This document shows positions 10,706 through 27,854 of a stretch of 32,421 nt of DNA, one piece after another. The stretch's first letter is position 1; every line of letters begins with the position of its first letter. The notes below the pieces were generated by a model. It made no database searches, was not told the DNA's origin, and saw nothing but the letters and a program-made list of their open reading frames with translations. The DNA is from an uncultured Planctomycetales bacterium (GTDB lineage: Bacteria > Planctomycetota > SZUA-567 > JAFGNG01): assembly GCA_964553265.1 (NCBI GenBank), contig CAZKKD010000002.1:1-32421 (forward strand), given 5' to 3'. A program made the position numbers and the translations under genes.

Positions 10706-10793
10706 TCTCCCGCTCCCGTTGGGAGAGGGCCGGGGTGAGGGCCTCGGACGGTGAACATCCCCCTCGCCCTGACCCTCTCCCAGAGGGAGAGGG
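10706..10793. repeat. Pair of inverted REP-like palindromic units (CCCTC-N-CCCT-N-CCCTCTCCC-NNN-GGGAGAGGG type)
   Basis: Unit 2 at 10761-10793 is ccctcgccctgaccctctccc-aga-gggagaggg (9-bp stem 10773-10781/10785-10793). Unit 1 at 10713-10741 is the same motif in reverse orientation (reverse complement ccctcaccccggccctctcccaacgggag, 24/29 identity to unit 2). A third copy lies at 14211-14237. Confidence 0.7.
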
Positions 10794-10924
10794 AACTTTT
10801 GCCGAACCGGCGCCGCCAGCTTCAGAGCGAAATGGCAAGAATTGAATGACCCCGGGATTCGCCGCCAGGCGCTTGCATCCGGACGGCGTGGACGGTAGAC
10901 TGCGGGGAGAGACCGATCCGACGC

Positions 10925-11014
10925 GGAGGGCTGGCCGAGCGGTCGAAGGCGACGGTTTTGAAAACCGTTGGGGCGGCAACGTCCTCAGGGGTTCGAATCC
11001 TCTGCCCTCCGCCA
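10925..11014 (+). tRNA. tRNA-Ser(UGA): tRNA-Ser, anticodon UGA, with encoded CCA
   Basis: Folded by hand. Acceptor GGAGGGC/GCCCTCC; 3-bp D stem with loop GAGCGGTCGAA; anticodon stem ACGGT/ACCGT with loop TT-TGA-AA. The long variable arm is GGGCG-GCAA-CGTCC, the T arm is AGGGG-TTCGAAT-CCTCT, and the discriminator is G followed by CCA. Confidence 0.92.
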
Positions 11015-11116: not shown

Positions 11117-12373
<1,257 letters not shown>

Positions 12374-12581
12374 GTGGGCTCCATTCTCTGGCGGGCACAG
12401 AACAGACCGGCTTCGTTCAGCCTTCGCGCGACCCTCGGTGAACCAGGGATCGCTCTGCCGACGGGGCGTTGGGTTTTCGCAAGGCCCTCTTGCCTAATTC
12501 TCGGCATATCGACGGGATACCGGATGCATGCACAGCCGTTCGGCCGAAACCCGAATTCGGAGCGAGCGCACCCTTTCGAGC

Positions 12582-13085
12582 TTACTGCGGTTGAACACTC
12601 CCGGATGGCCTTTTCTTGTCCGACCCCTTGCATGCGCGGTTTGCGACCAGGCTCGATGATTGCTCTTCGGTATTCCCGGCATCCTTCACGAACTGCTTCA
12701 TCTGGTCGACAAAGGTCATTGTCGGAAGGAGAAGAGGTGCATGCGGCCCCCTGCCGGTCAGGTTGGAAATCATTTCTCGGACTGAGCCGTACAGCACTGC
12801 GCTTCCGTTGATCTCGGCGAATTGCCGCACCTGTTCCTGGGGAAGGTCATCCTGAACTTTGAACAGTCCCACGACCTCTATATCAAACATGTAAGGCGGA
12901 GGGGCATCCTTGGCCGCTTCGTTCTTCAGGGAAAACGTGATTTGCCAACGCCGCGGGTTATCCTTGTGGTGAGCCGACGCCACTTCACAGGACAGATCGC
13001 CCGGTCCATCACAGCCGGCATTACAAGCCTCCACATGGATGCGCGTGAAAAAGTAATTTTCAAGCGACAGGGGCGAGAGCATCAT
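12582..13085 (-). CDS. SecB-like chaperone (167 aa), third gene of a TAC module
   Basis: Frame of ORF 12582..13178 (-). The start is at MMLSPLSLENYFF (ATG 13085 or 13082), overlapping the antitoxin 3' end by about 25 nt. FDIEVVGLFKVQDDLPQEQVRQFAEINGSAVLYGSVREMISNLTGRGPHAPLLLPTMTF parallels the SecB core (..GiF.i......l...l...cp..LFPYaRe.is.l...G.FP.L.L.PvNF). Confidence 0.75.
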   Translation of the reverse strand: MMLSPLSLENYFFTRIHVEACNAGCDGPGDLSCEVASAHHKDNPRRWQITFSLKNEAAKDAPPPYMFDIEVVGLFKVQDDLPQEQVRQFAEINGSAVLYGSVREMISNLTGRGPHAPLLLPTMTFVDQMKQFVKDAGNTEEQSSSLVANRACKGSDKKRPSGSVQPQ

Positions 13086-13506
13086 GACCAAACTCCTTGT
13101 CGGAGGCGACAAAGGGGATGCAGGTGACATCCCGGTCTTGCGTGTAGGACGCACGCATCGCATCGAGGTCCACTTCACCGCCCTCGGCAGAACCCGGCTT
13201 CACGTCAAACCAGAGAGACTGGGCGTCCTCGGGTCGAAGATGGATCCGGAAGTCGGTATCGAGCGCTCTGGCAATCTTTGCCATGGACTCCAGGGTGAAG
13301 TTGTAATCCCCCTTGAGTATTTTTGTGATGTAGGATGGGCGTACCTTCATCCGTTTGGCGAGGTCCGAACGGGAGATCCCTTTTGCCTCCATGCGCCGGA
13401 GCATCTCCTCAGTGAATTCGATGATCGCGCCCTCGATCCAGTACTCGAGAGACTGCTCCGCCTTTTTGAAAAGCTGCTGGAACTCTTTCCCCGGTCCTCT
13501 GCTCAT
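13060..13506 (-). CDS. XRE-family HTH antitoxin (HigA-like, 148 aa) with a C-terminal extension
   Basis: Frame of ORF 13060..13620 (-). The start is at MSRGPGKEFQQLF (ATG 13506), 1 nt after the toxin stop. The HTH is GISRSDLAKRMKVRPSYITKILKGDYNFTLESMAKIARALD. A tail of about 58 aa contains FVASD (13113-13099). Confidence 0.8.
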   Translation of the reverse strand: MSRGPGKEFQQLFKKAEQSLEYWIEGAIIEFTEEMLRRMEAKGISRSDLAKRMKVRPSYITKILKGDYNFTLESMAKIARALDTDFRIHLRPEDAQSLWFDVKPGSAEGGEVDLDAMRASYTQDRDVTCIPFVASDKEFGHDALAPVA

Positions 13507-13507
13507 C

Positions 13508-13903
13508 TCAAATCTCCCTGACGCGGCCCTCGGCCTTTGCCGACCGGTACAGATCCCGGATGCGCCGGGCCCTGTCGATCTCGCCGGGTGGGGTCTTTTG
13601 ACGCTTTTTGACGAAGCCATGCGTACAGATGATCAGATTCTCCTCATCCCAAAACCATGCGATCCGCAGGCAACCACCCTTGAACTCAAAGATTCCGTCT
13701 TCAAGACTGCGACACTTCTCCTTGTTGCGAATGCGACCCCGCTCCGCCATTTCCCGCAGAACACGCATGAGGCGGGCGAAATCCGTCGCTCTGCCCCTCC
13801 CCTACTCATCCAGAAAGCCACGCAGGTCACAGCCGTGGCCATCGATGGCCGTGACTCGGCAAGACGCACCAGACCAAACGACTTGCAGGTTCACGTCACT
13901 CAT
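13508..13903 (-). pseudogene. HigB/Gp49-like toxin gene interrupted by an in-frame TAG at codon 34
   Basis: The ORF track lists only the distal 86 aa (13508..13768). Hand translation from ATG 13903 gives MSDVNLQVVWSGASCRVTAIDGHGCDLRGFLDE-TAG(13804-13802)-GRGRATDFARL-MRVLREMAERGRIRNKEKCRSLEDGIFEFKGGCLRIAWFWDEENLIICTHGFVKKRQKTPPGEIDRARRIR..., all in one frame. Together this is a full-length Gp49-type toxin of about 130 aa. There is no SD in front of the internal ATG at 13768. Confidence 0.65.
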
Positions 13904-13907
13904 AAGA

Positions 13908-13935
13908 AGATTAACCTATAGGTGAACGATGTCAA
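13908..13935 (-). promoter_or_regulatory. Candidate promoter for the TAC operon (possibly giving a near-leaderless transcript)
   Basis: On the minus strand: TTGACA (13935-13930), a 16-nt spacer, then TAATCT (13913-13908). The -10 element ends only 4 nt before ATG 13903, and no SD is visible. Confidence 0.3.
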
Positions 13936-14108
13936 ATGAAAATGCTTTTTTGTGCTCATTGACACTCATAACGTATTGAAAGAAAAGGAGTTGCGAAAAA
14001 CCACTTCCAGCAGCCGCTGAACATGTTTTCCCTCTTGCGGTTACACTTAGTGGAACGTCCCGCAAGTAGATGAACAAATTCGCCGGGCGCCGCCCTCATC
14101 CTAACCCC

Positions 14109-14208
14109 AATACGGTTCAGCTAAGCGGTGGCACGGCCATCTTGGCCGTGGAATCATGGGCTGGAAGCCCATGCCACGACGCACCGGTCGTCTTAACTGA
14201 ACCGTATT
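14109..14208. repeat. 100-bp element bounded by 17-bp inverted repeats and enclosing two 7-bp GC stem-loops (MITE-like element or structured RNA)
   Basis: Left arm aatacggttcagctaag (14109-14125); right arm cttaactgaaccgtatt (14192-14208); 16/17 positions are complementary. Internal hairpins are cacggcc-atctt-ggccgtg (14132-14150) and catgggc-tggaa-gcccatg (14155-14173). The hexamer cctaac occurs 3 nt outside each arm (14100-14105 and 14212-14217). Confidence 0.5.
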
Positions 14209-14210
14209 GT

Positions 14211-14237
14211 CCCTAACTCTCTCCCAAAGGGAGAGGG
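14211..14237. repeat. REP-like palindromic unit, third copy
   Basis: ccctaactctctccc-aaa-gggagaggg matches unit 2 (10767-10796 region) at 26 of 30 aligned positions. It lies about 85 nt downstream of the stop of the pseudopilin-like operon, so it may also act as a terminator hairpin. Confidence 0.65.
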
Positions 14238-14320
14238 AATGTTCACCAACTTGCGGGGCGCTGTACTTAGACAAGCGGACGCCGATGATCGGGCACGCTC
14301 TTTCGCGCTTCCGTTCCGCG

Positions 14321-15178
14321 TCAGTCCGGTTGCGCGAAATAGCGGTGCTTCGGGCCGGCGGAGCTGGAGCGCGTCACCGCCCAGGCGTAGGGCTTGCCGT
14401 CGCCGAAAAGCGAGAAGGTGACGCTTGCGTCCTCCAGGCGGAAGGTGGTCGCCGCGCCGGAGGCGACGATCTGGTTGGCCCCGCCGACCGGGAGCGGCAG
14501 ATCGCAATGCTTCGTCTCGTGCGGATTGAAGACGAGGCCGTTGATCGTGACGATGCCTTCGGCGGCGCGGTCCTTTGTGCAGCCCATCACCTGGTCGGTA
14601 ATGAGGATCTCGTTCGGATCCTCGTGAACGGTGAGCGTGTCCACGTCCGAGTGGAGCGCATCGATGCGGTAGCGGCCGGGGTAGAAGTTGTATCCCGGCG
14701 AGGCCACGCCGCTGAAGTCGCCGTCCCACTGCACCCGGCTCGGGCGGTGCCAGTGCGGATCCATCGGCTCGCTCCAGTCGCGGAAGGGGCAGTAGACCGC
14801 CTGGCGCGATTCCACCGCGCCGGCCGACGGATCGAGCCGCAGGTAATCGGTGAAGTAGGAGAGGCAGCCTTCGCCGACAATCTTGAACGGCATCCGCTCT
14901 TTGCTCTCCCAGTGTTTGACGGTCCCGCCGGTCCAGATGAGTCCGCCGCCGAACGCGGGGTAGAGCCCGCCGAAGTCGCCGCGGTACATCTCCAGGGCCG
15001 TGTGGTTCTGTCGCAGCCGCGAGAGGCACGAGAGGGTCCGGGCGCTCTTGATCGCGCTCTCCAGCGCCGGCAGCAGCAGCCCCGCCAGGATGCTGATGAT
15101 GGCGATCACGACCAACAGCTCCACCAGGGTGAAACCGCGGCGACCGCGGTGGTGGTGTGCATGGGCAGACGTTGTCAA
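14321..15178 (-). CDS. Prepilin-type N-terminal cleavage/methylation domain protein (pseudopilin-like, DUF1559/H-X9-DG-related, 285 aa)
   Basis: Frame of ORF 14321..15448 (-). There is no ATG before the pilin leader, so the start is placed at TTG 15178-15176. This overlaps the upstream stop as TTGA, with GGAGGA immediately upstream. The leader is (M)[14 protein letters not shown]|[24 protein letters not shown]. The C-terminus has a degenerate motif [13 protein letters not shown] in place of H-X9-DG. Confidence 0.75.
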
Positions 15179-16074
15179 TTCCTCCGGTACAGGTTGCGGG
15201 CGTCGTTGATCACCATCCGGCCGGCGTAATTGCTGCCGTCCAGGTCGGCCGGGCCCAGCGCTTCGCTGTGGCCGTCGAAGAAGCTGACGCCGATCCGGCC
15301 CCCGTGGCGGAAAGCGGGAAAGCGAAGCTCCTCGCCCACCGAATCGCCGACGAGAAACGTGTCGTTCGGGTGGCTCAGCTCGGAGAGGCGGTGGACCACC
15401 GGATCCGGGACGGTGCGGCCGAGCGTGCCGTCCCAGCGGAAGTTGCACGGGAAAGCATACCCCTGCCCGCGGTTGCCGTTGACCTGGTAGTGGCTCCAGA
15501 TGCGCAGCCGACGGGCCGTCGATCCCTTGTACGCCACGTGGGCCGAGGGGCCGCCGTCAAAGCAGGTCGAGCCGGTCGCGCCGTTGCGCCAGACCGCCGT
15601 CCGCTTCACCTGGTTCGACTCCCCCCATTTGGGTGTCAACGCGGCCGCCGCCGGGCAGTTGAGAATGTCGCTGGTCCAGTGATCCCCGGTCCAGTCGCCG
15701 ACCAGTTCGCCGCTGATGAAGAGCGAACTGAGGCCGGGGTACTCCTGCGGACCGACCGTGTGACCCGAGCTGTTGAACTCGAACCAGTAGTAGGGATGGA
15801 GGATATCGTCGTAGTTGCCGACGTAGATGAGCATCGCGGTCGCCTGCTGGCGCGCATTGTTCTGGCAGTGGATCGTCTGCGCCGCTTCCTGCGCCGCTTC
15901 GAGTGCGGGCAGGAGCAACCCCGCCAGCACGCTGATGATGGCGATCACGACCAACAGCTCCACCAAGGTAAAACCGCGGCGGACTGCGCGGGCGGAACCC
16001 GCCGGGGCCTGCGTCCCCCGCCGCAGGGGGGCGGCGCCGGGGTCGCGTCCTTCATCTCCATACCGGTTTCGCAT
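15175..16074 (-). CDS. Prepilin-type N-terminal cleavage/methylation domain protein with an H-X9-DG C-terminal motif (299 aa)
   Basis: ORF 15175..16074 (-). AGGAGG lies 7 nt upstream. [27 protein letters not shown] follows a 33-aa leader. The C-terminal [17 protein letters not shown] is H-X9-DG. Confidence 0.85.
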
Positions 16075-18353: not shown

Positions 18354-18383
18354 TTGACAAACAGGGATGGATCAGACTACGAT
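18354..18383 (+). promoter_or_regulatory. Candidate sigma70-type promoter for the giant-gene cluster
   Basis: A perfect TTGACA (18354-18359), an 18-nt spacer, then TACGAT (18378-18383). This would give a leader of about 180 nt before ATG 18568. Confidence 0.3.
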
Positions 18384-18567
18384 GGACAAAACAAGTCCTG
18401 TTATTGCTTTCGTTTGCGACCGAAACAACGGCAGCGATGCGCCAGCGGTCCGACGCGCATCAGCATGGCGGCAGCGGTCCGGACAGGCCGGGCGCTCTCC
18501 CGCCGCGACGCATCGACTTCACACGGGTGGCGGAACCATACCACGCACGGATAACGGAGGAGCGAAC

Positions 18568-21500
18568 ATGAGGTACTCCGAAACGGGGTTCTGGAACTGG
18601 CTGATCGCGGCTTCCCTGCTGATCCTGGCGACGGCGGGCGCGGCCGATGCCGGCGAATTCGACCAGGCGCGCGCCGCCCTGGACGCCGGCGAGTACCAGA
18701 AGGCCGAGGATCTGCTGGAGAAGGAGCTGGCGAAGGCTTCCCCCGCCACGGAGGCGCTGGAGATCAGCATGCAGGCCGCGATGAAGAGCGGCCGCGTGGT
18801 CACCGCCCAGAAGCGGGTGAGTGCGCTGATGAAGGTGAAGGGCACGAGCGACCCCGACTTCGTGCGCCAGGCCGCCGAGATTGCCCAGCGCGCCGGCGAA
18901 GAGGCCAACGCGCTGCAGCGCTACCGCGAGTACCTCCGCTCCAACCCGCCGAAGAGCCCCGAGCTCCGGGTCGCGCTGGTGAACATGCTCAAGCTCGATC
19001 CGGACGTGGCCGCCTACAAACTGCTGGTCAACCAGTTCGGCGGCGCCGAGCAGGCCTGGTTCATCGGCGCGAACCAGCTGCAGCGCCTCTTCTACGAAAA
19101 GCGGTCCGGCGAAGGGCTGGAGCTGGCCGCCTTTCTGCTGGCGAAATACCCGGACGTTGACCACGTCAACTTCGTCCACGAACAGGTGAGCGACGCCGCG
19201 CAGAACCACCGCATCACCGGCGGCGCGCGCGACCGCTTCGTCAAGCCCCTGCAGGTGCTGCTGCAGAGCAAGCCCTCGACGGTGGAGCACCTCCTCTACC
19301 TCTTCGGCGAAGCGCGCCAGCACGCGATGAAGCCCGACGAGCGCCTCAAGGCCGCGCTCAAGATCCAGTCCCTGGCGGGCACGCCCCTGCCGGCGGATGC
19401 CTTCGAAGGCTTTCACGACATGCGCGGGCTGCAGAGCGAGGCCGACCGCGTCGGCGCCGGGCAGGCATTCCTCAAGCTGGATACCATTTACAAGAACAGC
19501 GCGGACCCGGCGGATTATGCCCGCTACGTGCGCGTGATCACCGACTCGCCCGAGGTCTTCGCCATCCCCGGCAAGCCGCTCTTGAACGCCGGCGCCGTGC
19601 AGGAGATGGTCCAGGCGCTTGTCCAGAAAAACGCCGGCCAGGCGGCCCCCTACGACCACCACATCCGCCAGGTGGCCGAGCACTACATCAAGGACCCGGG
19701 CGCGAAGGTGGCGTTCCTCCAGCGCTTCGCCGCCGGCTGTCCCGCGCAGGGGCCGTCGGTCACGATGCTGATGGAGGTCATTCCCGACCAGGCCTTCCCG
19801 CCCTTCGCGGCGGCCTACGCCAAGCAGCACGGCCTGCAGGAAACCGTGATCCTGAAGGCGCAGGGCCTGCCGATCTACAAGCGTCTCGGCGACAAGGCGG
19901 CGCTGCTCCAGGCCGCGCGCGACTACGTGACCACCTACCCCGGCAGCTTCGACGCCAAGCTGGTCTCCGAAAACGTGCTGGAGAGCGACCTCCTGACGCC
20001 GGACGAGAAGCTGGGCCTCGTGGAGGATGTGCTGCGCAAGGGCGGCCCCGGCAACCCGGCGCGCAACCTGGTGGGCAAGCTCTCCCCCTACAAGGGCAAC
20101 GCCAAGTACCAGACCGTCGTGGAGCTGAGCAAGGACGAGGACGGCGGCACCGACCCGGTGATGAAGACGCACGCCCGCATCTGCGCCATCGCCCCCAACC
20201 CCCGCAGCCCCAGCAAGCGGGTCTACGACATTGCCGAAGCGTTCCTGAAGACCTACCAGGGCGCCGTCCCCGGCGGTCGTGAACAGGTCACCTCCACGGC
20301 CGACGCCACCGCGCACGACATCTTTGTCAAGCACATGGAGCACGTCTACGAGAACCCCGGCGAGATTGCCCGCTGCGCCAAACTCTGGGCGCCGCGCCTG
20401 AGCATGGGGTCGGACTGGACGCGGCTGGTGGGCCGCGTGCGGCGCCTGCGGGGCTACGAGACGCTCAACGACATCGCCCCGCACTTCCTGGCGCTGGTCG
20501 AACAGGACGCAAAGCCGGACAACGAGCTCTGGACCGAGATGTCCTTCGCCCAGACGCCCCGCGGCGCCGATCAGAAGACGTCGGTCTTCGCCAAGGTATA
20601 CGAGCGCATGGGGGCGAACAACGCCCTCCGCTACGTCCACGACATGAACCGCGGCAGCTGGCCGCCGGAGCTGTACTTCTTCGAGCTGAGCAAGGTGCTG
20701 ACGCTTCCGGACATTGCCGACGCGTCCTGGGGGCGGATCCGCTCGGTCTCCAACGAGGTGACCCGCCGCGCCCGCAACCAGAAGCCGCCCGCCGAACTGG
20801 GCCAGGGGCTCTGGGCCTACTACACCAGCACGCGCCTGTCCAAGGACCTGCGCGACCTCGGCTTCGAGGCCGAGGTGTACGCCCAGCTCGCCCGCGGCGG
20901 CAACGACCAGGCCGCCGCCGCCTGGCTGGACCAGTACCGCAAGCTGCTGGACCAGCGCACCCCGCGCGGACGGGTGCAGGCGCTGTCGAACCTGCTGGGG
21001 TACCTCCCCCGCGAGCGGAACAACCTGCAGCCCGGCCGCCAGCACCACATGGCGATCAAGGTGATCGGCCCGATGCTCGCCAGCCTCCCGGCCGACGCGC
21101 ACCGGATGGTCTACATCCGCGGCTCGCTGCTGGACGCGATCGAGCATTACCTCAAGGCCGCGCCGCCCAACGAGCCGGAGCGGAAGACCGCCGAGGCCCT
21201 GCAGGCCACCATCGGCGACGTGCTGATCAACGGTGCGTCCTGCGAAGACGGCCGCAAGGCCCTCCCCTGCGTCCGCGACGCCGCCCTCGCCGCGGCGGAG
21301 AAGCTGGACTGGGACCGGCTCGGCCGGGTCAACGAGGCCCTGCCCCGGATCCTCGGCTGGAGCAACGACTGGAACGCCAACGTCAACATCGTCGTCAAGC
21401 CCCTCGCCGACAAGCTGATGGAGAAGGGGGCGCACGAGTTTGCCTACGTCCTCTCCAGCAACCTGGAGAAGAAGACGCGCATGCCCGGCAACGTGCGCGA

Positions 21501-24500
21501 GAACCTGACCCTCATCGAGACCGAGGCCCTCGGCAAGATGGGCGTGCAGCTTATCGACGCGAACAAGGGCAGCGCCCTCTACGACCTCAGCATGGCCGAC
21601 CACTTCTACCAGCGCGAGAACGTCGCCAAGGCGTGGGAGCTCGCCCGGCCGAAGCTGAACCTCGTCGCCGACAACTGGCAGAGCCTGACCCAGCCCTTCG
21701 TGGCCTGGCTCATCGACCGGATGCGCAAGACCCGCGAAGAGGACATGATGAAGGACGCGGTCAACCTCGCCCGCACGGTGCTCCTGAAGGAGAACGAGCT
21801 CGACAAGGCGACCGCCGCGCAGATCTATCTCAGTCTCGGCGATGTGCAGCGCGACCGGCAGAACTACCAGGCCGCCCGCATCGAGTACGAGAGCCTGCGC
21901 AACAACGAGGCGCTGAGCGCGACCCAGGCCGGCTCGATGGCGAAGTTCCGCCTCGTGGAGCTCCTGATCCTGACGCAGAACTACGGCGACGCCGAGCTGC
22001 AGCTTGAGCGCCTGCTGGACGCCGCCGACCCCGAGACGCGGGCGGAAGCGTACTACTACCTGGGGCTCCTGTCCTTCAGGCAGGAAGACTTCGAGACCGC
22101 CCGCGACTACGTGGCCGAGGTGCTGAAGCTGGAGATGTACCACGCCGAAGCGCGCCTGCTGGGGGCGGAGATCCGCCTGCGCATGCGCGATCTGGGCGAC
22201 CCGGACGTGGAGCTCACCCCGGCGCTCCTGGCCGACACCATCGTGCCGACCAAGGTGCTGGTGCTCAAACTGCGCGACCCGAACCTCGGCATCGTCCGGG
22301 CCGGGAGCTTCGTTCCGGTGACGGTCTACACCACCAAGGGGCGCGACAGCGAGGAGGTGAAGCTCTTCCCCTCCACCAGCGACCCCACCCTCTTCCGCGG
22401 CGAGATCCGCACCGACCTCGGCAAGGCCACCCCCGGCAACACCAAGCTGGAGGTGAACGGCGGCGACCAGGTGATGTACATCATCAGCAAGGACTACCAG
22501 GAAGCCAACGGGCTCGACTTCCCGGCCAAGGAACTCGCCATCAAGGCCGACGCCCACCTCGCGGCCAGCAGCGGCGAAATCCTTACCCAGGAAGAGGAGG
22601 AGAAACGCGAGCTCGAGGCCCGCATGCGCCGCCTCGCCGGCGAGCAGGAGGACGAGACCGCCCTCCGCGACCGCGTGCGCGACCAGCGGACCATCCGCCC
22701 GGGCAGCCCCATCTACCTGCAGGTCATCGACTACGACCGCGATCTCGGCGACGAGACTGACACCGTCACCGTGACGCTGAAGACCAGCAGCGGCGACATC
22801 CTGGAGGGCTTCTCCCTCAAGGAGACCGAGCCGCACAGCGCCATCTTCCGCGCCCAGGCGCCCACCGGCCTGCCGCTGCCGAAGGCCGAGGCCTCCGACA
22901 CGCGCGAGGGCGGCCCGCCGCCGGCGGTGCTCATCAACACCCAGCGCAACGAGGTCTGGTCCAGCGTCCCGGACGGCGAACGCCCGAAGAGCGTCGAGGT
23001 GGACACCATGACCTCCGTCCAGGTCGAGAAGGTGGCCCTTCAGGTCGCCGACGGCACCGAGATCCGCAAGCTCCGCCTCGAAGGCTCGCTCATCGAGGGC
23101 TTCCAGACCATCGCCGCCTACCCCGAAGAGACCGGCGGCGCGACCGGGGGGCTCACCCTCACCCTCGCCGACGGGCCGAAACGCGGCGACACCGCCATCG
23201 CCAGCCTGCGCAGCTACCTCCGCGCCAACAGCGACTACAAGGCGCCCCAGCAGGTGAGCTTCTACGACCGCAACAGCACCCCCCGCCGCGGCAACCGGTG
23301 GATCACCGCCGGCGTGAGCGGCGTCTTCTGGATGCCGCAGACCGAGACGCTGGAGTTCAAGTTCCTCCAGGAGCCCAGCCCCGGCGGCATGCAGACCGCC
23401 TATTTCCTCATCGACGGGAAGACCGTCCTCGGCGGCAAGATGGACGCCTTCCGCATCAATTTCACCAAGCGCGTCACCCTGGAGAAGGGCGCGCACCGGC
23501 TGGAGCTGCTCGTGCGCGACTACCCGAGCACCAGCCGCGTGGTGGTGGGCTACAAGCAGCCGGACGGCACCTATGCGGCGCTGCCGGAGAGCTGGTTCAG
23601 CGTCACCGAGCACCCCGAACTCGCCGACGCGCTCAAGCCCAAGGCCAGCATCCAGCGTGAGGGCGACACCTTCACCGCCGTCTTCAACAAGCCGGCCCGC
23701 CTGCGCAAGCTGCGCTGGACGGTGGACGACTACGCCGGCGAAGCCGTGGCGGCCAAGACCTTCACCGTCGTCGCCGACGGCGGCAAGACCATCGTCCCCG
23801 CCGAAGACGACTTCACCAGCGGCACCCAGAACAAGACCCTCGAGATCGCCCCAGGCGACCGCATCACCGTCGCCTACGAGGACGAGAAGAACACCCGCGG
23901 CGGCGACCCCGTCCTCACCGAGAACCTCAACGCCAGCTTCTACAACGGGGCGCTGGAACTCGTGAAGGAGAACATCTACACCGACGAGCGCGGCGAACGC
24001 CGCACCGTCCTCTTCCACGCCCGCCGCTGCAAGGCCGGCGACCAGGTGCTCGTCCGCATCGAGGACTGGGACCTCGACGTCTCCGACGAACGCGAGAAGG
24101 TGCCCTTCGTCGCGCGCACGAGCTCGGGCGAAGAGCTGACCCTCGAAGCGCTCGAAACCGGCCGCGACGAGGAGATGCACGACCACGCCGGCGTCTTCGT
24201 CCAGCGGCTGCGCTTCGGCGACCAGACCGGCGGCAACACCCTGAAGGTCCAGCCCGGCGACACCATCACCGTCTCCTATCTCGACCGCGAGAACACCGAC
24301 CCCGGCATCCCGATCGACCGCGAGGCCGTCGTCGAGGAGGCGAGCGGCGAGGACGCCTTCTTCACCGTCTACCGGACCTCCATCCAGATGGTCCCCGACG
24401 AGAGCCCCGCCGCCCAGGCGCGGCTGAAGCGCCTCGCGCAGGAGCTCGGCGAGGAAGAGGCGAAGAAGGTGGAGATCCTCCGGCCGCAGATCATCGCCGC

Positions 24501-26217
24501 CCACCCGGACTACGCCGAGGGCGGCGGCGGCGCGCCGCGGGCGGCGGTGCAGGCGCCGCTCCTCCTGGAGCTGACGCACCCGGTGGAGGCGAAGCACGCC
24601 GGCAGCGCCGTCGAGGTCCACGCCGTGGCCGAGAGCGAGCTCAAGGCCGCCGAGGCCGCCGGCCGCGAGCCGACCAGCGTCAAGGTGCCGCTCATCATCC
24701 AGAGCCTGGAGTCGCTCGCGCAGCGCAAGGGCTACCCCATCCAGCTGCAGAGCAACCAGCGCCGCGGGCCGGAGGAGATGCTCACCGACGGCGTCTTCGC
24801 CGGGGTGATCCGCCTGCAGCTCGGCCAGCCCGGCGACCCGATCGACGACACGGTGGTCCGCCAGGACGCCGTCTTCGGCCCGACGGAGCGCCGCGACGCC
24901 GACGCCGACCCGGATCGCGTCCCGACCATCATCGTCAGCGGCTCCGACGTCGTGCGCCTGACCTACGTCGACGCCCAGACCCGGGAGCCCCTGGCCGAGA
25001 CCGCGGTCGACCTCCTCAGCGACGCGCGGATGGAGCTCCTCGACCGCAGCTACACCATCAACAAGGACACCATCTACCTCGGCGAGGCCTTCCACATCCG
25101 CCTGACCGACCCGGACCAGGACGTCTCCGACGAGCGCGACCGCGTCAGCGTCCGCATCCGCTCGAGCAGCGGGGACGAGGTCAACCTCGACCTGACCGAG
25201 ACCATGGGCCACACCGGCGTCTTCAGCAGCTACCTCCGGCCGGAGTACAAGACCCCCGGCCAGCAGGAGGTCAACAAGACCGACCAGACGCTGCAGGTGG
25301 ACTTCGGCGACGAGGTGACCTTCGACTTCGTCGACGAGAAGCCCCTCAGCGACACCCAGCCGATCCGGGTCACCCAGCAGGGCAAGATCCGCCTCGGCAC
25401 CGACGGGCAGGTCGCCAGCTTCTCCAAGCGCTTCAAGGACCCGGAGATGGCGGTGAAGACGCGTTTCCTCATGGCCGAGGCGCTCTTCGAGAAGGCCAAG
25501 GACCTCCGCAACCTCAAGCGCAAGGAGGAGTCCGAGGACGCCATCGTCGAGGGCAAGCGCATCCTGGAGGAGGCGCTGCGCGACTACCCGAACACCAGCC
25601 TCGCGGCGCAGGGCGAGTTCCTCCTCGCCAACCTCGCGCAGGAGAAGGAAGCCTACGACGAGGCGGTCGGCCGCTTCACCGAGGTGATCAACCGCTGGCC
25701 GGAAAGCGAGTACGCCGCCCGGTCGCAGTACCACAAGGGCATCTGCTACGAGAAGAAGGAAGAGTTTGACCAGGCGTGCGAGGAGTACGTCAAGCTCACC
25801 TATCTCTACCCGGACACGCCGCTGGTGCAGGACGCGACCGTGCGCCTGGGCAACTACTACTACACGATGAAGAAGTACGACACCGCCGGGCGCATCTTTC
25901 TCCAGTTCCAGAAGCGCTTCCCCGCGCACCGGCTGGCGGCGAAGGCGATGTTCCTCGCCGCGCAGTGCAAGATGAAGGTGGAGCAGTACAAGGCCGCGTC
26001 CGGGGTCTTCGCCGATCTCATCGAGACCTACAAGGACGACAACGACCTCCGCGCCGAGGCCATGTACTGGCAGGGCGAGTGCCTCTTCAAGGGGCGCGAC
26101 CTGATGGGCGCGTACCAGACGTTCAAGAAGCTGACCTGGGACTACCCGGCCACCAAGTGGGCGAAGATCGCCCGCGGCCGCCTGACCGAAGAAGTCTTCG
26201 CGCGCATCGAGGACTGA
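18568..26217 (+). CDS. Giant exported protein (2,549 aa): signal peptide, long all-alpha TPR/HEAT-like N-terminal region, central beta-rich region with acidic repeat modules and a PA14-like segment, C-terminal YbgF/BamD-type TPR array
   Basis: Frame of ORF 18367..26217 (+). The start is at MRYSETGFWNWLIAASLLILATAGAADA|GEF (ATG 18568), with GGAGGA 6 nt upstream. TPR-like stretches include AEAYYYLGLLSFRQEDFETARDYVAEVLKL. The C-terminus reads EYAARSQYHKGICYEKKEEFDQACEEYVKLTYLYPDTPLVQDATVRLGNYYY...AEAMYWQGECLFKGRDLMGAYQTFKKLTWDYPATKWA. Amino-acid composition is realistic, whereas the 2,602-aa antisense ORF is not. Confidence 0.9.
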   Translation: MRYSETGFWNWLIAASLLILATAGAADAGEFDQARAALDAGEYQKAEDLLEKELAKASPATEALEISMQAAMKSGRVVTAQKRVSALMKVKGTSDPDFVRQAAEIAQRAGEEANALQRYREYLRSNPPKSPELRVALVNMLKLDPDVAAYKLLVNQFGGAEQAWFIGANQLQRLFYEKRSGEGLELAAFLLAKYPDVDHVNFVHEQVSDAAQNHRITGGARDRFVKPLQVLLQSKPSTVEHLLYLFGEARQHAMKPDERLKAALKIQSLAGTPLPADAFEGFHDMRGLQSEADRVGAGQAFLKLDTIYKNSADPADYARYVRVITDSPEVFAIPGKPLLNAGAVQEMVQALVQKNAGQAAPYDHHIRQVAEHYIKDPGAKVAFLQRFAAGCPAQGPSVTMLMEVIPDQAFPPFAAAYAKQHGLQETVILKAQGLPIYKRLGDKAALLQAARDYVTTYPGSFDAKLVSENVLESDLLTPDEKLGLVEDVLRKGGPGNPARNLVGKLSPYKGNAKYQTVVELSKDEDGGTDPVMKTHARICAIAPNPRSPSKRVYDIAEAFLKTYQGAVPGGREQVTSTADATAHDIFVKHMEHVYENPGEIARCAKLWAPRLSMGSDWTRLVGRVRRLRGYETLNDIAPHFLALVEQDAKPDNELWTEMSFAQTPRGADQKTSVFAKVYERMGANNALRYVHDMNRGSWPPELYFFELSKVLTLPDIADASWGRIRSVSNEVTRRARNQKPPAELGQGLWAYYTSTRLSKDLRDLGFEAEVYAQLARGGNDQAAAAWLDQYRKLLDQRTPRGRVQALSNLLGYLPRERNNLQPGRQHHMAIKVIGPMLASLPADAHRMVYIRGSLLDAIEHYLKAAPPNEPERKTAEALQATIGDVLINGASCEDGRKALPCVRDAALAAAEKLDWDRLGRVNEALPRILGWSNDWNANVNIVVKPLADKLMEKGAHEFAYVLSSNLEKKTRMPGNVRENLTLIETEALGKMGVQLIDANKGSALYDLSMADHFYQRENVAKAWELARPKLNLVADNWQSLTQPFVAWLIDRMRKTREEDMMKDAVNLARTVLLKENELDKATAAQIYLSLGDVQRDRQNYQAARIEYESLRNNEALSATQAGSMAKFRLVELLILTQNYGDAELQLERLLDAADPETRAEAYYYLGLLSFRQEDFETARDYVAEVLKLEMYHAEARLLGAEIRLRMRDLGDPDVELTPALLADTIVPTKVLVLKLRDPNLGIVRAGSFVPVTVYTTKGRDSEEVKLFPSTSDPTLFRGEIRTDLGKATPGNTKLEVNGGDQVMYIISKDYQEANGLDFPAKELAIKADAHLAASSGEILTQEEEEKRELEARMRRLAGEQEDETALRDRVRDQRTIRPGSPIYLQVIDYDRDLGDETDTVTVTLKTSSGDILEGFSLKETEPHSAIFRAQAPTGLPLPKAEASDTREGGPPPAVLINTQRNEVWSSVPDGERPKSVEVDTMTSVQVEKVALQVADGTEIRKLRLEGSLIEGFQTIAAYPEETGGATGGLTLTLADGPKRGDTAIASLRSYLRANSDYKAPQQVSFYDRNSTPRRGNRWITAGVSGVFWMPQTETLEFKFLQEPSPGGMQTAYFLIDGKTVLGGKMDAFRINFTKRVTLEKGAHRLELLVRDYPSTSRVVVGYKQPDGTYAALPESWFSVTEHPELADALKPKASIQREGDTFTAVFNKPARLRKLRWTVDDYAGEAVAAKTFTVVADGGKTIVPAEDDFTSGTQNKTLEIAPGDRITVAYEDEKNTRGGDPVLTENLNASFYNGALELVKENIYTDERGERRTVLFHARRCKAGDQVLVRIEDWDLDVSDEREKVPFVARTSSGEELTLEALETGRDEEMHDHAGVFVQRLRFGDQTGGNTLKVQPGDTITVSYLDRENTDPGIPIDREAVVEEASGEDAFFTVYRTSIQMVPDESPAAQARLKRLAQELGEEEAKKVEILRPQIIAAHPDYAEGGGGAPRAAVQAPLLLELTHPVEAKHAGSAVEVHAVAESELKAAEAAGREPTSVKVPLIIQSLESLAQRKGYPIQLQSNQRRGPEEMLTDGVFAGVIRLQLGQPGDPIDDTVVRQDAVFGPTERRDADADPDRVPTIIVSGSDVVRLTYVDAQTREPLAETAVDLLSDARMELLDRSYTINKDTIYLGEAFHIRLTDPDQDVSDERDRVSVRIRSSSGDEVNLDLTETMGHTGVFSSYLRPEYKTPGQQEVNKTDQTLQVDFGDEVTFDFVDEKPLSDTQPIRVTQQGKIRLGTDGQVASFSKRFKDPEMAVKTRFLMAEALFEKAKDLRNLKRKEESEDAIVEGKRILEEALRDYPNTSLAAQGEFLLANLAQEKEAYDEAVGRFTEVINRWPESEYAARSQYHKGICYEKKEEFDQACEEYVKLTYLYPDTPLVQDATVRLGNYYYTMKKYDTAGRIFLQFQKRFPAHRLAAKAMFLAAQCKMKVEQYKAASGVFADLIETYKDDNDLRAEAMYWQGECLFKGRDLMGAYQTFKKLTWDYPATKWAKIARGRLTEEVFARIED

Positions 26218-26249
26218 CCCGGCGCCAGACCGCAAGGAGGAGGAGCGCA

Positions 26250-27854
26250 ATGACACGGACACCGACACGCACCCTTCATCGCCTCTGCCTGGCGGCGGTG
26301 GCCTGGGCCCTCTGCTTGGGGCTCGCGGCGCCGGCGGCGCGGGCGGACTGGAACTGGAAGCTCACCGGCGACCAGATCCAGCTGCTCACCGCGTTCGAGG
26401 AGCAGCAGTACAAGAAGGCGGAAAAGCTCGTCGATTCCCGCAAATTCGACGCCGCCGCCGCCGAGTTCGAGAAGTTCCGCGTCCGCTTCGAAGACTCCGA
26501 CCTCATCCCCTACGTCCTCTTCCTGCAGGCGCACAGCCTCCACAAGGCGGCCAAGCGCAACAATGCCATCCGCATGTACCAGCAGGTGATCGATTACTTC
26601 GGCTATGACATCAACGCCGCCGCCCCCGCCAAGTACTGGCAGGGCAAGGCCCACCTCGACAACGGCGACACCCTGAAGGGCCTGAAGGTGATGCAGCAGA
26701 TGGTGGAGCACCCGGACTACAAGTACCACCCCCTCGCCGCCGGCGCGCTGCGGTACCTCGCCGACAACCACTGGACCAAGGAAGAGTACGAGCCGGCCAT
26801 CCGCTACTACAAGCAGATCTGGGACGACTTCTACCGCGAGAACAAGCAGGCCGTCCAGCACGCCGAGAACATGATCATCGGCTGGTACGTCTGGCAGAAG
26901 GACTACGACGGCTTCGAGGACTGGTACGTCGGCGACGACGTCCGCGTCGGCAAGACCCGCCTGCAGATGGAGGCGGCCAAGCGCGCCTGGGACGTGGCGC
27001 ACCACGGCTTCGCCGGCGACTGGGGCGGCCGCTACCCCAACACCAGGATCCGCGAGAAGCGCGACGACATGGAGGCGTTCTACAAGTACTTCCAGCGCCG
27101 CCGCGAAGAGTTCGAGCGCTCGGCCAACATCTGGGACTGGTACGACCGCGCCATCCAGTTCACCGTCTACCGCCACGGCGGCCCGAACAACACGTACCGC
27201 GACGAGCTGATCGACGAGGCGCTCGCCTACATCGCCAAGCAGTACGACGGCGAACCGGAGCAGGCGAACAAGAAATACGTCTGGCTCGGCGACCGCCTGC
27301 GCGACATCAAGCAGTTCGAGAAGGCGAAGTTCTGCTACAGCAAGCTCACCGACCCCAACCTCTACGCCTGGAAGAGCTACGAGATGACCGGCCGCTACGA
27401 GGGCAAGTGGCAGGACGCGGTCAAGTTCCTCGAGCAGATCGAGGCCAGCGGCAACGAGGAGTGGGTGATGCGCGCCCAGCGCGAACACGCCAACGTCTTC
27501 AAGGACCGCCTCGGCAAGTACGACGAGGCGATCAAGCTCTACCGCATCATCAACGACCCGCCCTGGAGCATCTGGCAGATCGTCGACGCGCACCTGCGCG
27601 CCAAGCAGCACGAACAGGCCGTCACCCGCCTGCGCGAGATGGAAAACTTCTTCCCGAAGGAGGCCTCCCAGGCGGCCTACAAGATCGCGAAGATCAAGGA
27701 AGGCAACGGCGACAAGGACGGCGCCATCGCCAGCTGGCGGCGTATCCTCAAGGTCTACCCCGGCAGCCGCGAAGCCAGCCGCTCGCACCAGGACCTGGAG
27801 CGCTACGGCATCGAGACCGGCGGCGGCGTGATGGATGAAGCGGACCTCAAGTAA
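26250..27854 (+). CDS. Exported all-alpha TPR-like protein (534 aa)
   Basis: Frame of ORF 25776..27854 (+). The start is at MTRTPTRTLHRLCLAAVAWALCLGLAAPAARA|DWNW (ATG 26250), with AGGAGGAGGA upstream, 32 nt after the giant gene stop. It contains Trp/Tyr-rich helical repeats (YWQGKAHLDNGDTLKGLKVMQQMVEHPDY..., AAYKIAKIKEGNGDKDGAIASWRRILKVYPGSREA). Confidence 0.85.
   Translation: MTRTPTRTLHRLCLAAVAWALCLGLAAPAARADWNWKLTGDQIQLLTAFEEQQYKKAEKLVDSRKFDAAAAEFEKFRVRFEDSDLIPYVLFLQAHSLHKAAKRNNAIRMYQQVIDYFGYDINAAAPAKYWQGKAHLDNGDTLKGLKVMQQMVEHPDYKYHPLAAGALRYLADNHWTKEEYEPAIRYYKQIWDDFYRENKQAVQHAENMIIGWYVWQKDYDGFEDWYVGDDVRVGKTRLQMEAAKRAWDVAHHGFAGDWGGRYPNTRIREKRDDMEAFYKYFQRRREEFERSANIWDWYDRAIQFTVYRHGGPNNTYRDELIDEALAYIAKQYDGEPEQANKKYVWLGDRLRDIKQFEKAKFCYSKLTDPNLYAWKSYEMTGRYEGKWQDAVKFLEQIEASGNEEWVMRAQREHANVFKDRLGKYDEAIKLYRIINDPPWSIWQIVDAHLRAKQHEQAVTRLREMENFFPKEASQAAYKIAKIKEGNGDKDGAIASWRRILKVYPGSREASRSHQDLERYGIETGGGVMDEADLK

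What the first reader, a model, noticed from the sequence alone, without database searches (positions are those of the whole stretch)
12582..13903. Tripartite toxin-antitoxin-chaperone (TAC) module: HigB/Gp49-like toxin, XRE antitoxin with C-terminal extension, SecB-like chaperone
Seen in the sequence: three minus-strand genes in the order toxin, antitoxin, SecB-like. There is a 1-nt gap between toxin and antitoxin and an overlap of about 25 nt between antitoxin and chaperone. They sit in a visibly lower-G+C islet (about 12.4-14.2 kb) immediately downstream of argG.

Established knowledge: TAC systems (prototype Mycobacterium tuberculosis HigB1-HigA1-Rv1957) use a dedicated SecB-like chaperone. 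The chaperone binds an aggregation-prone C-terminal 'chaperone addiction' segment of the antitoxin.

Inference: this is a TAC module acquired horizontally. Such modules are rare outside Actinobacteria and Proteobacteria, to my knowledge, and are often linked to phage defence or mobile DNA.
Basis: partly seen in the sequence, partly recalled or inferred. Interest (0 to 1): 0.65.

Follow-up and report, generated by a model that had tools for sequence, protein, structure and literature searches.

The report
Toxin-antitoxin-chaperone cassette with broken toxin
A small foreign-looking gene cassette in a Planctomycetota chromosome is a recognisable toxin-antitoxin-SecB-chaperone (TAC) module of a known type, but its toxin gene as sequenced carries a premature stop codon, so it is an ordinary and probably decaying example.

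Summary
The three minus-strand genes exist and are a HigBAC-type toxin-antitoxin-chaperone (TAC) cassette.

- **Toxin:** Gp49/HigB-like, Pfam PF05973, 54 bits.
- **Antitoxin:** XRE/HTH_3, 148 aa, with a 54-residue C-terminal tail that models with low confidence. The tail is rich in aromatic residues and ends in Val-Ala.
- **Chaperone:** SecB-like, 167 aa, Pfam PF02556 at 37.9 bits. The AlphaFold model matches SecB and M. tuberculosis Rv1957.

The 1-nt gap, the 26-nt overlap and the low-G+C islet are all confirmed (G+C 0.56 against 0.68; GC3 0.65-0.71 against 0.87-0.95). The same trio, with the same 26-nt overlap and a conserved palindrome upstream of the toxin, recurs in unrelated bacteria.

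The toxin frame from ATG 13903 contains an in-frame TAG at 13804-13802, at a position that is Leu or Gln in every relative. Only an 86-aa N-terminally truncated ORF remains. As sequenced, this is a toxin-inactivated TAC moving towards a toxin-less antitoxin-chaperone pair, unless the TAG is a sequencing error.

TAC and toxin-less AC systems, and their spread by horizontal transfer across several phyla, are already published. This is a new member of a known kind and of low interest.

The parts
12582..13085 (-). SecB-like TAC chaperone gene (167 aa; ATG 13085, TAA 12584-12582), with a GGAG Shine-Dalgarno motif 7 nt upstream
   Evidence: Pfam SecB PF02556 scores 37.9 bits against a cut-off of 26. 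PADLOC PD-T4-9_C (CmdC) gives E 2e-12. The best PDB sequence hit is Rv1957, 5MTW. The family profile hits SecB crystal structures at E 4e-13. The AF2 model has pLDDT 88 with four strands plus a long helix. Foldseek top hits are SecB and Rv1957 at probability 1.0.
13060..13506 (-). XRE/HTH_3 antitoxin gene (148 aa). The folded N-terminal part including the HTH covers residues 1-94.
   Evidence: Pfam HTH_3 scores 44.9 bits. It is 46% identical overall (55% over the best local alignment) to P0003, the antitoxin of the intact trio in L001. AF2 gives pLDDT 71-90 for residues 11-90.
13063..13224 (-). ChAD-like C-terminal tail of the antitoxin (residues 95-148). Aromatic residues are W99, F100, Y121, F132 and F139. 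The C-terminus is Val-Ala.
   Evidence: AF2 gives pLDDT below 50 for residues 95-148. Trp follows the HTH in the chaperone-linked antitoxins of L001 and L004-L006, but not L003. The C-termini resemble each other: PVA, PVAA, PAAA, EVA. The tail is absent from the 121-aa antitoxins P0004 (L014, no SecB gene) and P0006 (context not examined). Published ChAD features are taken from PMC6377645 and bioRxiv 10.1101/2024.02.24.581848.
13508..13903 (-). Gp49/HigB-like toxin gene, interrupted (131 codons including one in-frame stop)
   Evidence: Pfam Gp49 PF05973 scores 54 bits. It is 31-44% identical to intact 131-141-aa toxins in related trios. The family profile hits S. pneumoniae HigB 6AF3 at E 4e-9.
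13802..13804 (-). In-frame TAG nonsense codon (codon 34 of the toxin)
   Evidence: Seen in the translation. It aligns with Leu in L001, L002, L005 and L006 and with Gln in L003 and L004. TAG is one base change from TTG or CAG. argG ends in TAG, so TAG is a genuine stop here.
13508..13768 (-). Residual open frame (86 aa) of the toxin. It lacks about 45 N-terminal residues and has no Shine-Dalgarno motif.
   Evidence: the ORF listing. The Pfam match starts at profile position 16. The sequence upstream of ATG 13768 shows no suitably placed GGAG.
13911..13935 (-). Putative promoter/operator: a TTGACA hexamer (13935-13930) followed by the near-palindrome TTCACCTATAGGTTAA (13926-13911), ending 7 nt before the toxin ATG
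   Evidence: The palindrome was found. The same motif sits at the same place in L001 (TTAACTTATAGGTTAA), L004 (TTAACTTATAAGTAAA) and the bipartite L014 (TTTACCTAAAGGTTAA). TTGACA precedes it in the window, L001 and L014. It occurs once in the window and once per locus. Its function is inferred.
12374..14320 (.). Low-G+C islet between argG and a prepilin-type (N_methyl) gene
   Evidence: G+C is 0.564 against 0.679. GC3 of the three genes is 0.65-0.71, against 0.87-0.95 for flanking genes.

Best explanation
This is a horizontally acquired HigBAC-type toxin-antitoxin-chaperone cassette in a Planctomycetota chromosome.

**How an intact cassette would work.**
- One promoter drives all three genes. 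The antitoxin's HTH dimer probably represses it at the conserved palindrome.
- The products are a ribosome-dependent Gp49/HigB mRNA endonuclease, an XRE antitoxin and a SecB-like chaperone.
- The antitoxin's disordered, aromatic-rich C-terminal tail (ChAD) makes it unstable, possibly aided by the Val-Ala end acting as a ClpXP tag.
- The SecB-like tetramer binds that tail and so keeps the antitoxin soluble and the toxin neutralised.
- Anything that titrates the chaperone, such as a phage protein, would free the toxin.

**What is different in this copy.** The toxin gene carries a nonsense codon (TAG at codon 34). The toxin is most likely not made, or is made only as a non-functional fragment. 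What remains is an apparently intact antitoxin-chaperone pair with its regulatory site. This is an early stage of decay towards the 'AC' (toxin-less) state already described in the literature.

**Shown:** gene order, family memberships, the SecB fold, the tail features, the stop codon, the composition, and recurrence of the cassette and the palindrome.

**Inferred:** chaperone dependence, autoregulation, loss of toxin activity, and horizontal transfer.
For: - **Families:** Pfam hits above threshold for all three proteins.
- **Chaperone identity:** the best PDB sequence hit is the TAC chaperone Rv1957. It also matches the PADLOC CmdC model. The SecB fold is confirmed.
- **Not a housekeeping SecB:** 43.8 bits against a cut-off of 143 for the NCBIfam SecB equivalog.
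- **Recurrence:** intact Gp49-HTH-SecB trios with the same order occur in L001 (identical 26-nt overlap), L004, L005, L006 and viral L016. L003 has the same order, but its toxin ORF starts near the contig end and may be incomplete. Relatives of the same chaperone follow MqsRA-type pairs in L007, L008, L015 and L017.
- **Tail tracks the chaperone:** antitoxin homologues of 121 aa lack the tail. One of them, in L014, has no SecB gene downstream.
- **Tail properties:** low AF2 confidence, consistent with disorder. It has a Trp just after the HTH, as in Mtb W108 and E. coli W128, and a Val-Ala C-terminus like Mtb HigA1.
- **Stop codon:** in-frame TAG at a Leu/Gln position, and TAG is used as a stop by argG.
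- **Recent event:** every column that is invariant among the toxin relatives aligned here is also kept in the window copy. This includes the positions equivalent to catalytic E66, R68, R73, F90 and K92 of S. pneumoniae HigB. The inactivation is therefore recent.
- **Operator:** conserved palindrome upstream of the toxin.
- **Foreign composition:**
- **Precedent:** TAC/AC systems and their spread by horizontal transfer are published (PMC3581621).
Against: - The stop codon rests on a single assembled sequence. No second contig carries this module (one contig), so a sequencing or consensus error cannot be excluded.
- Nothing else in the toxin gene looks decayed.
- No experiment shows chaperone dependence, toxicity or operator binding.
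- The simple sigma-70 scan found no promoter.
- No integrase, transposase or att-like repeat marks the islet as mobile.
- The nearest available relative (ArgG 80% identical) has lost synteny, so absence of the islet in sister genomes is not demonstrated.
Confidence: 0.65

Rival explanations
1. The cassette is a fully functional TAC. The TAG is a sequencing or assembly error, or a minority variant fixed in the consensus, and the real gene encodes a 131-aa HigB.
For: Apart from the single codon, the toxin keeps every column that is invariant among the relatives aligned here, on both sides of the stop. The antitoxin, chaperone, Shine-Dalgarno motifs and operator are all intact. TAG is one substitution from the TTG or CAG expected from the relatives.
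Against: The sequence as given reads TAG. Substitution errors that create stops are uncommon in polished assemblies. Inactivating mutations in chromosomal toxins are common, and toxin-less AC systems are documented (PMC3581621).
Confidence: 0.2
2. An N-terminally truncated 86-aa toxin is translated from ATG 13768 and retains RNase activity. The module would then still work as a TAC with a shortened toxin.
For: The 86-aa ORF covers Pfam Gp49 profile positions 16-88 of 90 and all catalytic-equivalent residues.
Against: About 45 N-terminal residues are lost. In Mtb HigB-TAC, the N-terminal region and helix alpha1 make the main 16S rRNA contact (PMC9098466). No Shine-Dalgarno motif lies at a proper distance from ATG 13768, unlike the antitoxin and chaperone genes. 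No relative has such a short toxin.
Confidence: 0.06
3. The SecB-like gene is a general export or folding chaperone that merely lies next to an ordinary HigBA pair. There is no chaperone addiction.
For: The protein has the SecB fold, and its family profile hits E. coli and H. influenzae SecB. PGAP annotates such genes as 'protein-export chaperone SecB'.
Against: It scores far below the SecB equivalog cut-offs. It overlaps the antitoxin gene by 26 nt, and that overlap is conserved in L001. Its relatives repeatedly follow HigA- or MqsA-type antitoxins in unrelated phyla. The antitoxin tail is absent from 121-aa homologues, one of which has no SecB gene downstream. The gene shares the foreign composition of the TA genes.
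Confidence: 0.04

Closest known systems
Mycobacterium tuberculosis TAC (HigB1 Rv1955 - HigA1 Rv1956 - SecB-TA Rv1957)
   Same: - Same gene order, T-A-C.
- Gp49-like HigB toxin with a long C-terminal helix.
- HTH antitoxin with a C-terminal tail of about 45-55 residues that carries a Trp just after the folded domain and ends in Val-Ala.
- SecB-fold chaperone. Rv1957 is the best PDB sequence hit and among the top structural hits.
   Different: - Sequence identity is very low: the chaperone is 20-23% identical in the structural alignment.
- The ChAD sequence is not alignable beyond the Trp and the C-terminal dipeptide.
- The host is a planctomycete.
- The toxin here carries a nonsense codon.
E. 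coli NT1F31 HigBAC and CmdTAC / PD-T4-9 anti-phage TAC systems
   Same: Tricistronic TA plus SecB-like chaperone. The chaperone matches the PADLOC PD-T4-9_C (CmdC) model over nearly its full length at E 2e-12. The antitoxin tail has several spaced aromatic residues, as in the E. coli HigA ChAD.
   Different: - The tail is 54 residues against 96 in E. coli HigA.
- There is no prophage or defence-island context in this window.
- No anti-phage activity has been tested.
- The toxin is HigB-type, not the CmdT ADP-ribosyltransferase.
- The toxin is interrupted.
Toxin-less antitoxin-chaperone ('AC') systems (Sala et al. 2013, PMC3581621)
   Same: An antitoxin gene overlaps a downstream SecB-like gene, with no functional toxin, in a compositionally alien region.
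   Different: The toxin gene is still present here and almost intact, with a single nonsense codon. This is a TAC caught at the start of the transition rather than an established AC pair.
Uncharacterised Gp49-XRE-SecB trios found here (L001 metagenome contig; L004 Hyphomicrobiales; L005/L006 Verrucomicrobiota; L003 Smithella)
   Same: - Compared with L001, the toxin is 40% identical, the antitoxin 46% (55% over the best local alignment) and the chaperone 45%.
- L001 has the same 26-nt antitoxin/chaperone overlap.
- L001 and L004 share the TTAACyTATAGGTTAA-type palindrome upstream of the toxin.
- L001 and L004-L006 share the Trp motif and a similar antitoxin C-terminus.
   Different: Those copies have uninterrupted toxin genes, although the L003 toxin ORF starts near the contig end and may be incomplete. 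L001 sits in a defence island with an SNF2/NOV_C helicase, DUF1156 and an OLD-family ATPase.

Membership tests
[quoted passage not shown] | Three co-directional, tightly spaced genes in the order toxin, antitoxin, SecB-like chaperone | tested here: met
   The gap is 1 nt and the overlap 26 nt, all on the minus strand. The same layout occurs in L001 and L003-L006.
[quoted passage not shown] | The third gene encodes a SecB homologue (Pfam PF02556, SecB fold) | tested here: met
   PF02556 scores 37.9 bits against a cut-off of 26. The family profile hits SecB structures at E 4e-13. The AF2 model has pLDDT 88, and Foldseek hits SecB and Rv1957 at probability 1.0 with TM 0.55-0.76.
[quoted passage not shown] | The antitoxin carries a C-terminal, intrinsically disordered ChAD extension with aromatic anchor residues | tested here: met
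   The tail is 54 residues with pLDDT below 50 (shallow alignment). It contains W99, F100, Y121, F132 and F139. It is absent from the 121-aa homologues P0004 (bipartite L014, no SecB gene) and P0006. These are sequence-level features only.
[quoted passage not shown] | An intact, expressible toxin gene | tested here: not met
   There is an in-frame TAG at 13804-13802 (codon 34). Only an 86-aa N-truncated ORF remains.
[quoted passage not shown] | Toxin neutralisation by the antitoxin requires the cognate chaperone (chaperone addiction), and the chaperone binds the ChAD | not testable with these tools
   This needs co-expression and binding assays. No multimer modelling was available.
[quoted passage not shown] | C-terminal aliphatic dipeptide (Val-Ala or Ala-Ala) acting as a ClpXP degron, as described for Mtb HigA1 and CmdA | tested here: inconclusive
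   The antitoxin ends in ...APVA, and relatives end in PVAA, PAAA, EVA or LALAA. The motif is present but its function as a degron is untested. E. coli HigA does not depend on ClpXP, so this is not a universal criterion.
HigB / Gp49-like toxins (RelE/ParE superfamily) | Match to Pfam PF05973 and to a solved Gp49-like HigB, with catalytic-equivalent residues kept | tested here: met
   PF05973 scores 54 bits against a cut-off of 23.9. The profile hits S. pneumoniae HigB 6AF3 at E 3.8e-9. E73, K75, R80, F97 and K99 correspond to E66, R68, R73, F90 and K92 of S. pneumoniae HigB. This correspondence was read by eye from the alignment.
Housekeeping protein-export chaperone SecB | Score above the NCBIfam/TIGRFAM SecB equivalog cut-offs | tested here: not met
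   The best score is 43.8 bits against a cut-off of 143 (NF004392). TIGR00809 scores 18.6 against 102.8.
Toxin-less antitoxin-chaperone (AC) system (Sala et al. 2013) | An antitoxin-like HTH gene overlapping a SecB-like gene, with no toxin gene upstream | tested here: inconclusive
   The overlapping antitoxin-chaperone pair is present. A toxin gene is still present but disrupted, so this is a TAC-to-AC intermediate rather than a true AC.

The most novel reading that the evidence does not exclude
The in-frame TAG is not damage but a conditional switch. Full-length HigB would be made only when UAG is read through, for instance by a phage-encoded amber-suppressor tRNA or under translational stress. 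The cassette would then be a suppressor-triggered abortive-infection trap in which the antitoxin-chaperone pair is always present and the toxin is normally silent. The evidence does not exclude this: the rest of the toxin gene, the promoter/operator, the antitoxin and the chaperone all look intact. Nothing positively supports it, and no relative has a stop at this position.
Probability: 0.03. Interest if true: 0.75.

Novelty: new member of a known kind. Interest (0 to 1): 0.22.

Why it matters
The practical value is small.
- It adds a Planctomycetota host to the known, patchy range of TAC systems.
- It shows a TAC caught just after toxin inactivation, which illustrates how toxin-less antitoxin-chaperone pairs may arise.
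- It defines a sub-family of Gp49-XRE-SecB cassettes spread across phyla. Members share a Trp-containing tail motif, a ...PVA/PAA C-terminus and a conserved TTAACyTATAGGTTAA palindrome that probably serves as the antitoxin operator. These features could guide annotation, because such chaperones are currently named 'protein-export chaperone SecB'. They could also guide the design of binding experiments.

None of this changes the current understanding of TAC biology.

Tried and rejected
- **Word-indexed homologue search with the chaperone** returned only the query itself. The full HMMER scan was needed.
- **First chaperone alignment (35 sequences)** was too diverse for the search for related loci. 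A 10-sequence alignment worked but used a narrow peptide pattern, so the six genome loci and two viral loci are examples and not a census.
- **Exact look-up of ArgG** found nothing.
- **Presence/absence test of the islet** was inconclusive. The closest ArgG relatives are at most 80% identical, and their neighbourhoods share only argG with the window. The N_methyl genes match only in their N-terminal motif.
- **Signs of a mobile element** were not found: no integrase or transposase in the window and no convincing flanking direct repeats. The only tRNA, tRNA-Ser, lies upstream of argG and not at the islet edge.
- **The sigma-70 promoter scan** found no site in 12300-14400. The TTGACA plus palindrome was found by eye and by comparison with the related loci.
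- **Rfam** found nothing in the islet.
- **The GenBank phage collection** has no tblastn match to the chaperone.
- **Plus-strand ORFs overlapping the module** (for example 13355-13921 and 12374-12811) were rejected as antisense artefacts, because the minus-strand frames carry the Pfam domains.
- **TAG as a sense codon** was rejected, because argG terminates at TAG.
Full report
**1. What is in the sequence**

Between argG and a prepilin-type gene lie three minus-strand reading frames. argG runs 11117-12373 on the plus strand and ends in TAG. The prepilin-type (N_methyl) gene has its stop at 14321 on the minus strand.

- **Chaperone gene:** 13085-12582, 167 aa.
- **Antitoxin gene:** 13506-13060, 148 aa.
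- **Toxin frame:** opens at ATG 13903 and ends at TGA 13510-13508.

One nucleotide separates the toxin stop from the antitoxin ATG. The antitoxin and chaperone genes overlap by 26 nt. Both the antitoxin and the chaperone have a GGAG motif 7 nt before their ATG. The toxin has none.

Codon 34 of the toxin frame is TAG (13804-13802). The longest uninterrupted frame is only 13768-13508 (86 aa). argG itself stops at TAG, so TAG is a normal stop codon in this genome.

**2. Family assignments**

- **Pfam.** All three proteins score above the gathering thresholds. The chaperone matches SecB PF02556 (37.9 bits, E 2e-9). The antitoxin matches HTH_3 (44.9 bits). The toxin matches Gp49 PF05973 (54 bits).
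- **Chaperone, sequence level.** Its best PDB sequence match is the M. tuberculosis TAC chaperone Rv1957 (5MTW). A profile of its family hits the E. coli and H. influenzae SecB structures at about 1e-13. It matches the PADLOC model for CmdC, the chaperone of the CmdTAC/PD-T4-9 defence system, over almost its full length (E 2e-12).
- **Chaperone, structure level.** An AlphaFold2 model has mean pLDDT 88 and shows four strands plus a long helix. Foldseek retrieves SecB and Rv1957 as the top hits at probability 1.0.
- **Not a housekeeping SecB.** It scores far below the NCBIfam equivalog cut-offs, 43.8 against 143 bits.
- **Toxin.** The toxin family profile matches the Gp49-like HigB of S. pneumoniae (6AF3, E 4e-9). 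Residues equivalent to its catalytic E66, R68, R73, F90 and K92 are present.

**3. The antitoxin tail**

AlphaFold models residues 1-94 as a helical HTH domain. Residues 95-148 have pLDDT below 50 (with a shallow alignment). The tail contains W99, F100, Y121, F132 and F139 and ends in Val-Ala.

Published work defines the ChAD element as a disordered C-terminal extension. Its aromatic residues dock into pockets of the SecB-like tetramer: W108 and Y114 in Mtb HigA1, and W128, F158, F188 and Y214 in E. coli HigA. In Mtb HigA1 the C-terminal Val-Ala is a ClpXP degron (PMC6377645, PMC5105189, bioRxiv 10.1101/2024.02.24.581848).

In the relatives found here, chaperone-linked antitoxins are 138-148 aa. 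Those of L001, L004, L005 and L006 share a Trp immediately after the HTH (W-F/I/L-D/H). Their C-termini resemble each other (PVA, PVAA, PAAA, EVA). The closest antitoxin homologues that lack the tail are 121 aa. One of them, in L014, sits in a bipartite Gp49-HTH locus with no SecB gene.

**4. Recurrence elsewhere**

The chaperone has no close relatives. The word-indexed search returned only the query. A full HMMER scan finds 1713 clusters at E<=1e-3 and 466 at E<=1e-10, mostly 150-170 aa.

The antitoxin's best homologue lies in L001, on a 918-kb metagenome contig. There it is part of an intact trio with the same 26-nt overlap: Gp49 of 133 aa, HTH of 143 aa and SecB of 153 aa. That trio sits in a defence island. 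Identity to the window is 40% for the toxin, 46% for the antitoxin (55% over the best local alignment) and 45% for the chaperone.

Further loci came from pattern-limited scans:
- Gp49-HTH-SecB trios in Smithella, a Hyphomicrobiales MAG and two Verrucomicrobiota genomes.
- MqsR/MqsA-type pairs followed by a related chaperone in an Akkermansia MAG and a Puniceicoccaceae MAG.
- Two predicted viral contigs, one HigBA-type and one MqsRA-type.
- A Thiodictyon plasmid with MqsA plus SecB next to DISARM drmA.

**5. A conserved regulatory site**

Immediately upstream of the toxin ATG lies TTGACA (13935-13930), followed by the near-palindrome TTCACCTATAGGTTAA (13926-13911). The same palindrome sits at the same place in L001 (TTAACTTATAGGTTAA), L004 (TTAACTTATAAGTAAA) and the bipartite L014 (TTTACCTAAAGGTTAA). 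TTGACA precedes it in three of the four. A related palindrome, AACTTTTAAAGTT, occurs in L005.

The motif occurs once per sequence. The degenerate pattern was derived from these same sites, so the count is only a uniqueness check. I infer that this is the operator for the HTH antitoxin, overlapping the promoter. The generic promoter scan did not call a site there.

**6. The stop codon**

In an alignment of seven toxins, the TAG column is Leu in four relatives and Gln in two. TAG is one substitution from TTG or CAG. Every column that is invariant among the relatives is retained in the window copy on both sides of the stop. The lesion is therefore a single, recent event or an error.

Translation from ATG 13768 would give an 86-aa fragment lacking about 45 N-terminal residues. 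In Mtb HigB-TAC, the N-terminal region and helix alpha1 make the principal 16S rRNA contact (PMC9098466). No Shine-Dalgarno motif is suitably placed before that ATG. The fragment is unlikely to be active.

Only one contig carries this module, so the stop cannot be cross-checked.

**7. Host and origin**

ArgG's best named relatives are Planctomycetota MAGs, at most 80% identical. The flanking genes are ordinary chromosomal genes:
- a URO-D-like protein;
- a GH3 glycosidase;
- a GT4 glycosyltransferase;
- a pseudouridine synthase;
- tRNA-Ser;
- argG;
- two N_methyl proteins;
- an aminotransferase;
- a giant TPR protein.

The islet has G+C 0.564 against 0.679 elsewhere. GC3 is 0.65-0.71 against 0.87-0.95, and the islet is the lowest-G+C segment of its size in the window. 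This supports foreign origin, in line with the published view that at least 75% of TAC/AC systems were acquired horizontally (PMC3581621).

A presence/absence test failed for lack of close genomes. The nearest relative shares only argG with the window. No integrase, transposase or att-like repeats were found.

**8. Verdict**

Two corrections are needed.
- The toxin gene is interrupted. The module as sequenced is best described as a toxin-inactivated TAC on its way to a toxin-less 'AC' pair, a category described in 2013.
- TAC systems are sparse but not confined to Actinobacteria and Proteobacteria. The literature reports seven phyla, and the scans here add examples from several more lineages and from viral contigs.

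I found no mention of Planctomycetes in the TAC papers read, so the host phylum may be a modest extension of the known range. Mechanistically nothing departs from the known model. This is a new member of a known kind and of low interest.

Noticed in passing
window 14046-14270: Nested inverted repeats lie in the spacer upstream of the toxin promoter. The arms are 14046-14076 with 14240-14270, and 14108-14125 with 14192-14209. The region folds into a long hairpin of -113.5 kcal/mol, with z = -5.7 against shuffles. There is no Rfam match. It looks like a REP- or MITE-type palindromic element.
   Followed up: partly
window 10767-10795 and 14211-14239: A 29-nt hairpin-containing direct repeat, CCCTrACyCTCTCCCArAGGGAGAGGGAA, is 26/29 identical between its two copies. 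The copies flank the block tRNA-Ser, argG and TAC. It is probably a dispersed repeat rather than an insertion scar, but this was not tested against other genomes.
   Followed up: partly
window 10925-11014 (+): tRNA-Ser (anticodon TGA) lies about 100 nt upstream of argG. It is the only tRNA in the window and is not at the edge of the low-G+C islet.
   Followed up: yes
window 14321-15148 and 15175-16074 (-): Two tandem paralogous genes carry a prepilin-type N-terminal methylation motif (PF07963), typical of Planctomycetota. Their 5' regions share an 83-nt stretch at 89% identity (15060-15142 and 15899-15981).
   Followed up: partly
window 18367-26217 (+): A giant ORF of 2616 aa has TPR and YfiO-like repeats near the C-terminus. 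It is followed by another TPR protein (25776-27854). Function was not examined.
   Followed up: no
protein P0009: One relative of the chaperone is 287 aa, with the SecB-like part at residues 134-265. It may be an antitoxin-chaperone fusion or a mis-called overlapping gene pair.
   Followed up: no
L001 1037-10432; L017 2573-4435; L007 55-2469: Related TAC cassettes sit beside defence genes. L001 has an SNF2/NOV_C helicase, DUF1156 and an OLD-family AAA_15 protein. L017, a Thiodictyon plasmid, has DISARM drmA and an ISAs1 transposase. L007 has an 804-aa ORF that by eye resembles a DNA methyltransferase (not scanned against Pfam). The window's copy has no such neighbours.
   Followed up: partly
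L007 2978-3592; L015 1782-2387: MqsA-type antitoxins linked to chaperones of the same family end in ...LALAA or ...FALAA. These are ssrA-like Ala-Ala termini, parallel to the Val-Ala or Ala-Ala ends of the HigA-type antitoxins.
   Followed up: no
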